A stretch of DNA of 34,976 bases from a virus (lineage: Duplodnaviria; Heunggongvirae; Uroviricota; Caudoviricetes), in the IMG/VR virus record IMGVR_UViG_2671180676_000009; one strand, given 5' to 3'. Position numbers and translations under genes: made by a program. The notes below the pieces were generated by a model. It worked only from the letters and a program-made list of their open reading frames with translations. It was not told the origin of the DNA and ran no database searches. Position 1 is the stretch's first letter. Each line of letters opens with the position of its first letter. This document shows, one piece after another, positions 1 through 2,414 of the stretch.

Positions 1-252
1 ATGATGAACATCGAAGAACTGCGTAAAATTTTTTGTGAAGATGGCCTCTATGCTGTGTGCGTTGAAAATGGAAATCTTGTTAGTCATTACCGCATTATGT
101 GTTTGCGAAAGAATGGGGCTGCGTTAATTAATTTTGTGGATGCTCGGGTCACGGACGGATTTATCTTGCGCGAAGGTGAGTTTGTCACTTCATTACAGGC
201 ATTGAAAGAGATCGGAATAAAAGCTGGCTTTTCTGCTTTTTCAGGAGAATAA
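1..252 (+). CDS. rem: Rem-like small prophage protein (83 aa), function unknown
   Basis: 83-aa ORF starting at window position 1; matches my recollection of Qin Rem in size and position upstream of ydfU. Confidence 0.55.
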   Translation: MMNIEELRKIFCEDGLYAVCVENGNLVSHYRIMCLRKNGAALINFVDARVTDGFILREGEFVTSLQALKEIGIKAGFSAFSGE

Positions 253-318
253 ACTCATCTACAATCTTGCGCGGGGCTGAACTCCCGCTGAGTAACACCG
301 TGCCACCGGAGAAAACCG

Positions 319-597
319 ATGGCACGCAACGCAAAATATTACAATTCTGATAATTCGCCCGTTCTTGCCTGCACGCACGGGCGGTATTCTCACGCATTCA
401 AGTCTGAATGGTTCCAGCACCCTCCATGCACTGCAGAACAGGCCGAATGGCTGATTCATTCTTACCGCAGGCGCGGGTTCGAGGTTAAGAAAGCTCTCAG
501 TCTCGACTATCGGCACTGGATAATCTCTGTCAGGCTGCCTTATTCCGAACGCCCACCACGTGCGTCCCGCACTTCCCAGCAACGGATCTGGAGGTAA
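319..597 (+). CDS. Hypothetical protein (92 aa)
   Basis: ATG at 319 with GGAG 7 nt upstream; stop TAA 595-597 lies 1 nt before the GTG start of the next gene, suggesting translational coupling; no family recognised. Confidence 0.4.
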   Translation: MARNAKYYNSDNSPVLACTHGRYSHAFKSEWFQHPPCTAEQAEWLIHSYRRRGFEVKKALSLDYRHWIISVRLPYSERPPRASRTSQQRIWR

Positions 598-598
598 C

Positions 599-1648
599 GT
601 GCGGGTATTACTTAGACCTGTTCTGGTGCCTGAGCTTGGGCTGGTGGTCCTTAAGCCGGGCCGTGAATCCATACAGATATTTCATAATCCTCGAGTGCTG
701 GTGGAACCGGAACCAAAAAGCATGCGTAATCTGCCATCCGGAGTCGTTCCTGCCGTTCGCCAGCCGCTGGCGGAAGACAAAACATTGCTGCCGTTTTTTA
801 GTAACGAACGGGTGATTCGTGCTGCTGGCGGCGTTGGCGCATTGTCCGACTGGCTATTACGTCATGTTACATCCTGCCAGTGGCCTAATGGCGATTACCA
901 TCACACTGAAACAGTCATTCACCGTTATGGTACCGGCGCAATGGTGTTGTGCTGGCACTGCGACAACCAACTGCGTGACCAGACATCGGAATCACTGGAG
1001 CTGCTTGCTCAACAAAATCTGACAGCATGGGTGATTGACGTCATCCGTCACGCAATAAGCGGTACGCAGGAGCGGGAATTATCTTTGGCTGAATTATCCT
1101 GGTGGGCGGTCTGCAATCAGGTGGTGGATGCACTACCTGAGGCTGTATCGCGTCGTTCGCTGGGATTACCAGCGGAAAAAATCTGCTCGGTGTACCGCGA
1201 AAGCGACATCGTACCGGGAGAGCAGACCGCCACCAGCATATTGAAACAACGCACAAAAAATCTTGCACCGTTGCCTTACGCCCACCAGCAACAAAAATCA
1301 CCACAGGAAAAGACGGTGGTAAGCATCACCGTTGATCCAGAGTCTCCGGAATCTTTCATGAAGCTGCCTAAACGTCGCCGCTGGGTTAAGGAGAAATACA
1401 CACGTTGGGTTAAGACACAGCCGTGTGCTTGCTGCGGTATGCCAGCCGACGATCCGCATCATCTGATTGGTCACGGGCAGGGCGGAATGGGAACAAAAGC
1501 ACATGATCTCTTTGTGTTGCCTTTGTGCAGAAAGCATCACAACGAGCTGCATACGGATACAGTGGCATTTGAAGATAAGTATGGCTCCCAACTGGAGCTG
1601 ATATTTCGTTTTATCGATCGCGCGCTGACAATTGGCGTACTGGCGTAA
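599..1648 (+). CDS. ydfU: YdfU-like DUF968 protein with C-terminal Cys/His cluster (349 aa)
   Basis: GTG start at 599 preceded by GGAGG (590-594); C-terminus CACCG...DPHHLIGHG...CRKHHNELH; sits immediately upstream of Q as in Qin. Confidence 0.7.
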   Translation: MRVLLRPVLVPELGLVVLKPGRESIQIFHNPRVLVEPEPKSMRNLPSGVVPAVRQPLAEDKTLLPFFSNERVIRAAGGVGALSDWLLRHVTSCQWPNGDYHHTETVIHRYGTGAMVLCWHCDNQLRDQTSESLELLAQQNLTAWVIDVIRHAISGTQERELSLAELSWWAVCNQVVDALPEAVSRRSLGLPAEKICSVYRESDIVPGEQTATSILKQRTKNLAPLPYAHQQQKSPQEKTVVSITVDPESPESFMKLPKRRRWVKEKYTRWVKTQPCACCGMPADDPHHLIGHGQGGMGTKAHDLFVLPLCRKHHNELHTDTVAFEDKYGSQLELIFRFIDRALTIGVLA

Positions 1649-1661
1649 GTGGAGAACGAGC

Positions 1662-2414
1662 ATGAACCTTGAAGCCTTACCAAAATATTACTCCCCAAAA
1701 TCTCCAAAATTGAGCGATGACGCTCCAGCGACAGGCACCGGTTGTTTAACAATTACGGATGTAATGGCAGCGCAGGGGATGGTGCAGTCGAAAGCACCAC
1801 TTGGGTTGGCCTTATTTCTGGCAAAAGTTGGTGTTCAGGACCCTCAGTTTGCGATTGAAGGCCTGCTAAATTACGCGATGGCACTGGATAACCCGACATT
1901 GAACAAATTGAGTGAAGAAATCCGGTTACAGATTATTCCTTACCTCGTGAGTTTTGCCTTTGCTGATTACTCCAGGTCTGCGGCAAGTAAGGCTCGCTGT
2001 GAGCATTGTTCAGGTACGGGATTTTATAATGTATTGCGCGAAGTGGTGAAACACTACAGACGCGGGGAATCTGTAATCAAGGAAGAATGGGTGAAGGAAC
2101 TATGTCAGCATTGCCATGGTAAGGGCGAAGCCAGCACAGCGTGCAGAGGGTGTAAGGGTAAAGGGATTGTTCTGGATGAAAAAAGAACCCGGTTTCATGG
2201 CGTACCGGTATATAAGATTTGTGGGCGTTGTAATGGAAACCGGTTTAGTCGTTTACCGACCACGCTGGCACGACGTCATGTCCAGAAGCTGGTACCAGAC
2301 CTGACCGATTATCAGTGGTATAAGGGGTATGCGGACGTCATTGGTAAACTGGTAACAAAGTGCTGGCAGGAAGAAGCATACGCGGAAGCGCAATTGAGGA
2401 AGGTGACGAGATAA
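1662..2414 (+). CDS. quuQ: Late-gene antiterminator Q (250 aa, phage 21/82-like class)
   Basis: ATG 1662 with GGAG 7 nt upstream; four CxxCxG-type zinc-finger repeats (CEHCSGTG, CQHCHGKG, CRGCKGKG, CGRCNGNR); N-terminus MNLEALPKYY as in Qin QuuQ. Confidence 0.85.
   Translation: MNLEALPKYYSPKSPKLSDDAPATGTGCLTITDVMAAQGMVQSKAPLGLALFLAKVGVQDPQFAIEGLLNYAMALDNPTLNKLSEEIRLQIIPYLVSFAFADYSRSAASKARCEHCSGTGFYNVLREVVKHYRRGESVIKEEWVKELCQHCHGKGEASTACRGCKGKGIVLDEKRTRFHGVPVYKICGRCNGNRFSRLPTTLARRHVQKLVPDLTDYQWYKGYADVIGKLVTKCWQEEAYAEAQLRKVTR

What the first reader, a model, noticed from the sequence alone, without database searches (positions are those of the whole stretch)
319..1648. DUF968 protein with a Cys/His cluster, translationally coupled to an unannotated upstream ORF
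The 92-aa ORF (319-597) ends 1 nt before the GTG start of ydfU. The YdfU C-terminus (CACCGMPADDPHHLIGHG...CRKHHNELH) resembles HNH / zinc-binding nuclease motifs. The pair sits just upstream of Q, where lambdoid phages carry nin-region nucleases and resolvases, so it may be a nuclease module.
Basis: inference. Interest (0 to 1): 0.45.

Follow-up and report, generated by a model that had tools for sequence, protein, structure and literature searches.

The report
Prophage HNH nuclease and small partner gene
In the Qin prophage of E. coli, ydfU encodes a predicted (already published) HNH-type DNA nuclease, and the ORF just upstream is a real, conserved small phage gene of unknown function that usually sits directly in front of such nuclease genes; this is an annotation gap, not a new kind of system.

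Summary
ORF 319-597 (92 aa) ends 1 nt before the GTG of ydfU (599-1648), and its last codons (TGG AGG TAA) form the GGAGG ribosome-binding site of ydfU. No gene is annotated there in MG1655 NC_000913.3, although PGAP calls it a hypothetical protein in other genomes.

The 92-aa ORF is a genuine gene (phrog_1212). It is under purifying selection, has a confidently modelled beta-alpha-beta-beta core, is basic, and has no informative fold match. In about 85-90% of the sampled relatives it lies 1-2 nt upstream of a His-Me nuclease gene of four families (YdfU, a short YbcO/DUF968-like form, YbcO, NinG).

However, identical small proteins pair with different nucleases. Most YdfU homologues lack the small gene, and distant members have other genes in between. 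So "coupled gene pair in the nin region" is supported, but "dedicated two-protein nuclease module" is not shown.

The parts
271..326 (+). Two conserved RNA hairpins in the rem/small-ORF spacer. Hairpin 1 is at 271-288. Hairpin 2 is at 299-326 and pairs the SD (GGAG 308-311) and the AUG (319-321) of the small ORF.
   Evidence: Fold of 253-340 gives z = -3.45, with 0 of 200 shuffles as stable. The structure is kept in 6 haplotypes, with one G-C to A-U compensatory change in hairpin 1. There is no Rfam match. Function was not tested.
319..597 (+). Gene for a 92-aa small basic protein (phrog_1212 family; absent from the MG1655 reference annotation).
   Evidence: pI is 10.2.
319..396 (+). N-terminal extension (residues 1-26). 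It is found only in the Escherichia/Qin-type variant, is variable and is predicted disordered.
   Evidence: It is absent from the 66-aa homologues. pLDDT is about 50. dN/dS is about 1.4, but on few changes. No internal start codon lies near codon 27.
400..543 (+). Folded core of the small protein (residues 28-75): beta-alpha-beta-beta.
   Evidence: AF2 pLDDT is above 90, with E28-33, H39-52, E56-60 and E67-75. Conserved residues are F32, Y49, D63, L73 and P74. dN/dS is 0.11.
544..594 (+). Basic Pro/Arg-rich tail (residues 76-92, ...PPRASRTSQQRIWR), predicted disordered. W91 is nearly invariant.
   Evidence: dN/dS is 0.13 with synonymous variation present (pS 0.19), so the constraint is at the protein level.
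589..601 (+). Coupling junction GGAGG-T-AA-C-GTG. The last two sense codons (TGG AGG) plus the stop of the small ORF form the SD of ydfU, and the GTG start follows 1 nt after the stop.
   Evidence: The junction is identical in 36/36 non-redundant Qin-type pairs. The analogous TGG-GGG-TGA-NN-ATG junction occurs before NinG, YbcO and short His-Me nuclease genes.
599..1648 (+). ydfU, 349 aa, a DUF968 protein.
   Evidence: The start at 599 is supported by the conserved N-terminus MR(V/A)LL.P in homologues that lack the small ORF.
764..1168 (+). YdfU middle domain (residues about 56-190), confidently modelled. Its function is unknown.
   Evidence: AF2 pLDDT is about 85-94. hhalign finds no similarity to NinB, YbcN, DUF1367 or Rem (probability below 1%).
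875..976 (+). Second Cys/His cluster with a beta-hairpin plus helix (residues 93-126; C93, H101, C118, C121, D122, N123, R126).
   Evidence: C93, Q94, C118, W119, D122, N123 and R126 are invariant even in P1 PdcB and the Vibrio homologue. H101 is invariant in A7. Strands are at 105-110 and 113-118, and the helix at 119-125.
1361..1645 (+). C-terminal His-Me (HNH, beta-beta-alpha-metal) nuclease domain (residues 255-349).
1424..1552 (+). HNH motif proper (residues 276-318). Inferred Zn ligands are C276, C279, C310 and H313. Inferred catalytic/metal residues are H288, D303, H314 and H318.
   Evidence: C276, C279, D284-H288, D303, H314 and H318 are invariant in 26 sequences down to 39% identity. 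The profile aligns to YbcO and the IscB HNH. Residue roles are inferred by analogy, not tested.
1662..2414 (+). ydfT/quuQ, the Q-type antiterminator (context: the YdfU family lies directly upstream of the late-gene regulator).
   Evidence: The same order is seen in SfV, Klebsiella, mEp390, YeP2, Morganella and Salmonella phages. In P1 the homologue pdcB lies upstream of lpa.

Best explanation
ydfU encodes a two-domain nin-region DNA nuclease of a lambdoid prophage.

- The C-terminal 95 residues form a zinc-stabilised His-Me (HNH, beta-beta-alpha-metal) finger of the DUF968/YbcO group. Its core is most like phage P1 Ref. It would cut DNA by the usual one-metal mechanism, with H288 as general base and H314/H318 (helped by D303) holding the metal. 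These residue roles are inferred.
- The conserved middle domain, with its own Cys/His cluster, probably supplies DNA or DNA-structure recognition. This is also inferred.
- The gene is transcribed at the end of the early-right operon, just before Q, like NinG, YbcO and RusA in other lambdoid phages.

The ORF at 319-597 is a real gene for an 11-kDa basic protein with a beta-alpha-beta-beta core and a disordered basic tail. Its last codons and stop codon create the Shine-Dalgarno sequence of ydfU. Ribosomes finishing the small ORF are therefore placed to reinitiate at GTG 599, which would be translational coupling. The geometry is shown; the coupling itself is inferred.

The most likely role of the small protein is a non-essential, nucleic-acid-binding accessory factor of the phage recombination/nuclease gene block. 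It is probably not a dedicated subunit of YdfU.
For: - Nuclease assignment: DUF968 at 255.9 bits against a cut-off of 27.8. PHROG 96 'HNH endonuclease' matches over the full length at 7e-171.
- Active site: motif residues are invariant.
- Literature: YdfU is placed with YbcO in His-Me group 7 (PMC5714182).
- Small gene is real.
- Junction and SD.
- Neighbourhood: 71 of 84 combinations of a unique small-protein core with its downstream gene class are His-Me nucleases of four families, and 5 more are RusA.
- Co-inheritance: in all 22 sampled E. coli hits that cover the ydfU 5' part, the match also starts at or before position 309, so it includes the small ORF.
- Basic character: median pI is 9.7 and median net charge +5.
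Against: - There are no biochemical data for YdfU or the small protein in the searched literature.
- Identical small-protein cores precede different nuclease families.
- The small protein's sequence tracks the upstream gene class instead: the closest cores with different upstream classes are only 58% identical.
- YdfU-family genes in SfV, Klebsiella, Yersinia, Morganella and Vibrio phages and in P1 lack the small ORF.
- In Erwinia, Hafnia and Pantoea phages other genes intervene. In PhiR46_1 the next gene is a RecE-like exonuclease, and in PY54 it is an unknown ORF after a 48-nt gap.
- Tight stop/start packing is general in nin regions, so it is weak evidence of partnership.
- P1 PdcB has lost the equivalents of H288, H314 and H318, so not every family member need be a nuclease.
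Confidence: 0.6

Rival explanations
1. The small gene is an independent nin-region accessory gene, comparable to NinD/E/F/H of lambda, with no functional tie to the nuclease. It ends up next to nuclease genes only because lambdoid nin regions keep a fixed gene order. The conserved gene-boundary sequence (TGG-GGG/AGG-stop-N1-2-start) would act as a recombination joint where modules are swapped.
For: - Identical cores pair with YbcO, NinG or the short His-Me nuclease.
- The small protein co-varies with the upstream gene, not the downstream one.
- Nuclease families occur without it.
- Distant members are separated from NinG by a methylase, NinF or other ORFs.
- Mosaic breakpoints lie at 302, about 1340 and 1648.
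Against: - In the Qin type the upstream neighbour varies (rem, or hokD directly) while the small ORF stays fused to ydfU. All sampled hits that cover the ydfU 5' part include it.
- In about 100 non-redundant pairs nothing intervenes, and the spacing is fixed at 1-2 nt.
- The next gene is almost always a DNA nuclease, even when the fold differs (RusA, RecE-like).
Confidence: 0.4
2. The small protein is an inhibitor or immunity-like partner that keeps the potentially toxic HNH nuclease in check. It would be made first and in proportion through coupling.
For: The gene lies immediately upstream of His-Me nucleases with a conserved coupling geometry. The literature reports a strong Rho-dependent terminator upstream of ydfU and treats such prophage genes as toxic (PMC9160355).
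Against: - The same small protein would have to neutralise four different nuclease families and RusA.
- The nucleases occur widely without it.
- It is basic, like its putative targets, rather than an acidic DNA mimic.
- There is no hit in PADLOC or in toxin-antitoxin families.
Confidence: 0.08
3. YdfU is not primarily a nuclease. It would be a DNA- or RNA-binding factor linked to late-gene activation, with the HNH finger acting as a zinc-binding interaction module.
For: - The family sits directly upstream of the late regulator in every context seen: Q in lambdoid phages and Lpa in P1.
- The most conserved motif across the whole family, including P1 PdcB, is in the middle domain.
- PdcB has lost the HNH catalytic histidines.
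Against: - In the lambdoid members the full catalytic set (H288, D303, H314, H318) is invariant down to 39% identity, which implies selection for catalysis.
- The position before Q is also where NinG, YbcO and RusA lie.
- P1 pdcB is non-essential (PMC10695390).
Confidence: 0.1
4. The 92-aa ORF is not a functional protein. It would be only a leader ORF, or a chance ORF, whose translation opens the ydfU ribosome-binding site.
For: The ydfU SD and GTG can pair with upstream codons of the ORF (CCCGCAC 567-573 with GUGCGGG 599-605). The MG1655 curators did not annotate it.
Against: - Purifying selection acts on the amino-acid sequence, with synonymous change present.
- The family is conserved down to 28-50% identity across Enterobacterales phages.
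- The fold is modelled with confidence.
- The junction hairpin is no more stable than shuffled sequence (z = 0.6; family medians -0.9 to +0.6).
Confidence: 0.03

Closest known systems
YbcO (DUF1364, PF07102; DLP12/phage 82 prophage, PDB 3g27) and the DUF968/DUF1364 'group 7' of the His-Me finger superfamily (Jablonska et al. 2017, PMC5714182)
   Same: Same beta-beta-alpha-metal zinc finger. The motifs align (HI..G..G.GTK..DL....C..CHDE). Same nin-region position before RusA/Q. YdfU of Qin is named explicitly in that group.
   Different: YbcO is a bare 96-aa finger. YdfU carries an extra 250 residues, including a second conserved Cys/His domain. Neither protein has been characterised biochemically in the literature searched.
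Phage P1 Ref (RecA-dependent HNH nuclease, PF16786, PDB 3plw)
   Different: The Pfam score is below the 26.9-bit cut-off. Ref has a disordered basic N-terminus rather than the YdfU N-terminal and middle domains. RecA dependence of YdfU is untested.
Lambda NinG/Rap (PF05766), the branched-DNA endonuclease of the nin region
   Same: His-Me finger nuclease in the same genomic slot. In Gifsy-2, GF-2 and many prophages NinG is the gene that follows the small-ORF homologue, with the same 1-2 nt junction.
   Different: YdfU has no NinG Pfam hit. The domain architecture differs, and NinG is a separate group (24) in the His-Me classification.
Orf-HNH fusion proteins of Listeria/Staphylococcus phages (HNHc_6, PF16784; Curtis et al. 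2014, PMC4118853)
   Same: An HNH finger at the C-terminus of a larger phage recombination-region protein. The HNHc_6 hit is 26.3 bits, just under the 26.6 cut-off.
   Different: The YdfU N-terminal part shows no profile similarity to NinB/Orf, YbcN or DUF1367 (hhalign probability below 1%).
Phage P1 PdcB ('post-doc' gene B, unknown function, non-essential)
   Same: Full-length homologue of YdfU (26% identity over residues 32-348). It lies directly upstream of the late regulator (lpa) and is preceded by a small ORF (pdcA).
   Different: PdcA is not a homologue of the 92-aa protein (HMM search negative). PdcB lacks the catalytic histidines.
phrog_1212 / N15 'Orf QD1' / Gifsy-2 STM1021.1n / mEp237 gp51 (uncharacterised small phage proteins)
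   Same: These are homologues of the 92-aa protein. They share the 66-aa core and the tail ending in W-G/R/K, and sit in nin or early-recombination regions.
   Different: The Qin/Escherichia variant carries an extra 26-residue N-terminal extension and is the only variant paired with the long YdfU nuclease.
Lambda NinE and NinF (small proteins just upstream of ybcO in DLP12 [from my own recollection, not checked here] or of ninG in lambda)
   Same: The same slot (a small ORF immediately 5' of the nin nuclease, in tight stop/start contact) and the same lack of known function. No NinE or NinF was found in the flanks of the 176 loci that carry the small ORF.
   Different: No sequence relationship: no Pfam NinE or NinF hit for any of 33 family members at E up to 10. 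NinF co-occurs with the small ORF in Erwinia phage 59 and Pantoea PA-1.

Membership tests
DUF968 (PF06147) / His-Me finger superfamily | Match to the family HMM above the curated cut-off | tested here: met
   255.9 bits against 27.8, residues 160-346. PHROG 96 'HNH endonuclease' at 7e-171.
DUF968 (PF06147) / His-Me finger superfamily | Beta-beta-alpha-metal fold | tested here: met
DUF968 (PF06147) / His-Me finger superfamily | Catalytic His at the end of strand 1 and a metal-binding His/Asn on the helix; Cys/His zinc ligands flanking the finger | tested here: met
   H287, H288, D303, H314, H318, C276 and C279 are invariant and C310 is at least 90% conserved in 26 sequences down to 39% identity. 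They align to YbcO and the IscB HNH.
DUF968 (PF06147) / His-Me finger superfamily | Metal-dependent nuclease activity | not testable with these tools
   No biochemical report on YdfU or DUF968 was found.
NinG/Rap (PF05766) | Match to the NinG HMM | tested here: not met
   No NinG hit for YdfU at E up to 1. A true NinG (Gifsy-2) scores 274 bits in the same library.
RecA-dependent nuclease Ref (PF16786) | Match to the family HMM above cut-off; nuclease activity that requires RecA filaments | tested here: inconclusive
   The HMM hit is 17.8 bits, below the 26.9 cut-off, but Ref is the best structural neighbour. RecA dependence is not testable here.
Orf/NinB-HNH fusions (HNHc_6, PF16784) | An Orf/NinB-like N-terminal DNA-binding domain fused to the HNH finger | tested here: not met
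   HNHc_6 scores 26.3 bits against a 26.6 cut-off, and only over the finger. hhalign of YdfU 1-250 against NinB, YbcN and DUF1367 gives probability of 0.4% or less.
phrog_1212 (small ORF) | Match to the family HMM over its full length | tested here: met
   E = 1.4e-34, residues 27-92 on profile positions 1-66 of 66.
NinE (PF05322) / NinF (PF05810) for the small ORF | Match to the family HMM | tested here: not met
   No hit for the window protein or for any of 33 family members at E up to 10. The sequences look unrelated on inspection.
Translationally coupled gene pair | Upstream stop within a few nt of the downstream start, with the downstream SD inside the upstream ORF, conserved among relatives | tested here: met
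   TGG-AGG-TAA-C-GTG occurs in 36/36 Qin-type pairs, and TGG-GGG-TGA-NN-ATG before NinG, YbcO and the short His-Me genes.
Translationally coupled gene pair | Downstream translation depends on upstream translation | not testable with these tools
   This needs reporter fusions. A hairpin that occludes the SD and start is possible but no better than shuffled sequence.
Toxin-antitoxin / anti-phage defence system | Match to known defence or TA protein models | tested here: not met
   No PADLOC hit for the small protein, YdfU or Rem. No NCBIfam hit for the small protein or YdfU; Rem has one sub-threshold SocB_toxin match, 14.9 bits against a 210-bit cut-off.

The most novel reading that the evidence does not exclude
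The phrog_1212 small protein is a shared, interchangeable accessory factor for nin-region DNA nucleases. As a DNA- or DNA-structure-binding or host-factor-recruiting subunit, it would work with whichever nuclease is encoded next (four His-Me families, RusA, RecE-like). It would be delivered in fixed proportion by a conserved termination-reinitiation junction in which its C-terminal Trp-Gly/Arg codons double as the nuclease's Shine-Dalgarno sequence.
Probability: 0.22. Interest if true: 0.55.

Novelty: already known. Interest (0 to 1): 0.3.

Why it matters
There are three practical gains:

1. A real, conserved 92-aa gene is missing from the curated E. coli K-12 MG1655 record between rem and ydfU and could be added.
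2. YdfU can be described more precisely: a two-domain protein with an intact HNH finger closest to P1 Ref and YbcO, plus a second conserved Cys/His domain that is shared with P1 PdcB.
3. A small, basic, uncharacterised phage protein family is shown to sit, with a conserved SD-in-codon junction, in front of interchangeable nuclease genes. This gives a cheap experimental handle on poorly understood nin-region recombination functions.

None of this changes current concepts. The HNH assignment was published in 2017, and nin genes are dispensable accessory functions.

Tried and rejected
1. NinE/NinF identity of the small ORF. No Pfam hit for 33 members. jackhmmer with lambda NinE, NinF, NinD and NinH found nothing in 176 loci. 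Rejected.
2. YdfU N-terminal part as an Orf/NinB, YbcN, DUF1367 or Rem relative. hhalign probabilities are 0.4% or less. Rejected.
3. P1 PdcA as a homologue of the small ORF, and hidden small ORFs upstream of the SfV, Klebsiella, P1 and Vibrio YdfU homologues. An HMM search with all filters off found nothing (best E = 0.32). Rejected.
5. An SD-occluding hairpin at the junction as the coupling device. The pairing exists but is no more stable than shuffled sequence, in Qin and in the other families. Inconclusive.
6. An alternative ydfU start at GTG 560 (362 aa). Rejected because homologues without the small ORF start at the equivalent of 599, there is no SD before 560, and PGAP agrees.
7. A programmed frameshift or fusion of the two ORFs. 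Only one in-frame fusion protein exists (P0187, one contig, caused by a small deletion). Rejected as a general feature.
8. A defence-system or toxin-antitoxin reading. No PADLOC hit for any of the three proteins, and no NCBIfam hit for the small protein or YdfU; Rem has only a sub-threshold SocB_toxin match, 14.9 bits against a 210-bit cut-off.
9. Rfam families in 1-2600. None relevant.
10. Promoter and terminator scan of 1-2600. Nothing above chance between rem and ydfU.
It was rerun with database homologues.
12. A genome-contig scan with the broad alignment failed for lack of a conserved block. The narrower alignment returned only 9 Escherichia/Shigella-type loci.
Full report
**1. What is there**

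The window starts in the Qin cryptic prophage of E. coli: rem (1-252), an ORF at 319-597, ydfU (599-1648), ydfT/quuQ (1662-2414), then cspF and cspB.

The ORF runs from ATG 319 to TAA 595-597 (92 aa). One base follows, and then the GTG of ydfU at 599. GGAGG at 589-593 lies 5 nt before that GTG and is made of the last two sense codons of the ORF (TGG AGG). GGAG at 308-311 serves the ORF itself.

The curated MG1655 record NC_000913.3 has no feature between rem and ydfU. PGAP-annotated genomes call the ORF a hypothetical protein, WP_012304870.1.

**2. YdfU**

- Family assignment. Pfam gives DUF968 (residues 160-346, 255.9 bits) plus sub-threshold HNHc_6 and RecA_dep_nuc hits. PHROG 96, annotated "HNH endonuclease", covers the whole protein.
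- Model. An AF2 model was built on 26 homologues down to 39% identity. It has two confident parts. One is a middle domain (about 56-190). The other is a C-terminal domain (255-349) with a beta-hairpin and helix at 285-319.
- Active site. C276, C279, D284-H288, D303, H314 and H318 are invariant, and C310 is nearly so. The profile aligns to YbcO and the IscB HNH across the motif.

The HNH reading is therefore well supported, but it is not new. Jablonska et al. 2017 place YdfU of Qin with YbcO in His-Me group 7 and propose a recombination role. Curtis et al. 2014 discuss DUF968 as an HNH fusion. I found no biochemical work on YdfU.

**3.

- A second Cys/His cluster lies in the middle domain (C93, H101, C118, C121, then D122, N123, R126). 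It sits on its own beta-hairpin plus helix. This motif is the most conserved feature of the whole family.
- The family extends to SfV orf45 (58% identity) and to Klebsiella, Salmonella, Yersinia and Morganella phages. It also reaches Vibrio phage H20 (30%) and P1 PdcB (26%, full length).
- PdcB keeps the middle-domain motif but has lost the equivalents of H288, H314 and H318. It is non-essential in P1 (PMC10695390).
- In every context examined the YdfU-family gene lies directly upstream of the late regulator: Q in lambdoid phages and lpa in P1.
- The YdfU N-terminal part is not detectably related to NinB/Orf, YbcN, DUF1367 or Rem.

**4. The 92-aa ORF is a real gene**

- It has 126 close homologues in Escherichia/Shigella and matches phrog_1212.
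- An exhaustive profile search finds only 74 cluster representatives in 1.84 billion proteins, so the family is small.
- tblastn finds 37-48% identical 66-aa homologues in Salmonella (Gifsy-2, SPN3UB), E. coli (mEp237), Cronobacter and Klebsiella phages. It also finds them in Hafnia, Edwardsiella, Yersinia (PY54), Erwinia and Pantoea phages.
- The alignment shows a protein-like pattern, with F32, Y49, D63, L73, P74 and W91 conserved.
- Among 26 distinct Qin-type alleles, dN/dS is 0.11 in the core and 0.13 in the tail, with synonymous variation present. The Escherichia-specific 26-residue N-terminal extension looks unconstrained.
- AF2 models residues 28-75 as beta-alpha-beta-beta with pLDDT above 90. 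The extension and the basic tail (...PPRPSRTFQQRIWR) are disordered.
- The family is basic (median pI 9.7).
- It has no Pfam, NCBIfam or PADLOC family.

**5. Neighbourhood of the small gene**

I analysed about 176 loci. They came from IMG/VR, GTDB genomes and phage records, so the sample is biased towards the query types.

- Downstream gene by unique small-protein core: NinG 23, long YdfU 21, a roughly 93-aa short His-Me nuclease 16, and YbcO/DUF1364 11.
  - The short nuclease belongs to phrog_131 and has sub-threshold hits to both YbcO and DUF968.
  - One of the 16 is fused to RusA.
- Less often the downstream gene is RusA (5), something else or a truncated gene (7), or PY54 ORF48 (1).
- Spacing is 1 nt in 36/36 Qin-type pairs and 2 nt in nearly all the others.
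- The junction is TGG-GGG/AGG-stop-N1-2-ATG/GTG. The conserved C-terminal Trp-Gly/Arg codons therefore double as the nuclease's Shine-Dalgarno sequence. This is the geometry expected for termination-reinitiation coupling, but coupling was not tested.
- A hairpin can pair the ydfU SD and GTG with upstream codons. It is no more stable than shuffled sequence.

**6. Is it a two-protein nuclease module?**

The evidence is mixed.

For:
- The adjacency described above.
- In E. coli all 22 sampled megablast hits that cover the 5' part of ydfU also include the small ORF, with a recurrent breakpoint at 302 just upstream of its SD.
- The 92-aa variant is found only with long YdfU.

Against:
- Identical 66-aa cores precede different nuclease families (YbcO versus NinG, YbcO versus the short His-Me form).
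- The closest cores with different upstream genes (DUF1367, YbcN, NinB) are only 58% identical. The gene is therefore co-inherited with its upstream neighbour and shuffled relative to the nuclease.
- Full-length YdfU homologues outside the Qin type have no small ORF upstream.
- In Erwinia phage 59 a cytosine methylase and NinF intervene. In Hafnia and Pantoea phages other small ORFs intervene.
- In PhiR46_1 the next gene is a RecE-like exonuclease, and in PY54 it is an unknown ORF after 48 nt.
- Tight stop/start packing is normal in nin regions.

I therefore rate [quoted passage not shown] as the best reading. "Independent nin gene placed there by synteny" is a strong rival. "Inhibitor/immunity protein" and "mere leader ORF" are unlikely.

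**7. Context**

The rem/small-ORF spacer (253-340) folds better than all 200 shuffles (z = -3.45). One of its hairpins (299-326) sequesters the SD and AUG of the small ORF. Both hairpins are conserved, and hairpin 1 shows one compensatory change. There is no Rfam match. A published survey lists the Rho-dependent terminator upstream of ydfU among the strongest in E. coli (PMC9160355). A poorly initiated small ORF would fit that, but this link is my inference.

**8. Verdict**

The HNH interpretation is correct but already published. The upstream ORF is a genuine, conserved gene missing from the K-12 reference annotation. The "module" idea is only partly supported. Interest is modest.

Noticed in passing
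window 253-340: The rem/small-ORF spacer RNA is unusually stable (z = -3.45, 0 of 200 shuffles as stable). Hairpin 271-288 shows one compensatory G-C to A-U change in the O157 version. Hairpin 299-326 buries the SD and AUG of the small ORF. There is no Rfam family. It may relate to the strong Rho-dependent termination reported upstream of ydfU (PMC9160355).
   Followed up: partly
window 875-976 (YdfU residues 93-126): A second conserved Cys/His cluster (C93, H101, C118, C121, D122, N123, R126) sits on a beta-hairpin plus helix in the middle domain. It is invariant even in P1 PdcB and a Vibrio phage homologue, so it is better conserved than the HNH catalytic residues. It may be a degenerate second His-Me or treble-clef unit.
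   Followed up: partly
L180 2405-3448 (phage P1 pdcB) and L180 3537-3989 (lpa): P1 PdcB ('post-doc' gene, unknown function) is a full-length YdfU homologue (26% identity) that lacks the HNH catalytic histidines. It sits directly upstream of the late promoter activator Lpa, just as YdfU-family genes sit directly upstream of Q in lambdoid phages.
   Followed up: partly
window 302, about 1331-1349, and 1623-1648: Megablast breakpoints recur across E. coli genomes. The small ORF plus YdfU residues 1-250 travel as one block, and the HNH domain (residues about 250-349) plus Q travel as another. This implies domain-level mosaicism inside ydfU at the disordered linker.
   Followed up: partly
L173 524-775 and L174 277-528; window 1-252: A Rem-like protein (phrog_340, E = 5.5e-8; best hit phrog_1813) also lies upstream of a 66-aa small-ORF homologue that is followed by RusA. 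The Rem / small-ORF neighbourhood therefore recurs outside the Qin type. Rem itself has no known function.
   Followed up: partly
P0187 (one NCBI contig); L114 3677-4318: Natural fusions exist. One is an in-frame fusion of the small protein to YdfU (438 aa, a small deletion at the junction). Another is a short His-Me nuclease fused to RusA (213 aa). The first may be a mutation or an assembly error.
   Followed up: no
window 1662-2414 (ydfT/quuQ): The Q-type antiterminator carries a DnaJ-like CXXCXGXG zinc-finger segment (Pfam DnaJ_CXXCXGXG, 35.4 bits, residues about 145-190) ahead of the Antiterm domain.
   Followed up: no
P0188, P0189, P0191 (607-aa products): Some database entries fuse YdfU and YdfT into one 607-aa product. 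They carry a newer Pfam family, PF27659, that is absent from the local Pfam copy. It may be a model for the YdfU N-terminal or middle domain, or for the Q N-terminus.
   Followed up: no
window 319-594 versus the common allele: The window's small protein has Ser86 (RTSQQRIWR), where most alleles, including the most widespread one, have Phe or Tyr (RTFQQRIWR). The exact window sequence is still found on 43 contigs.
   Followed up: no
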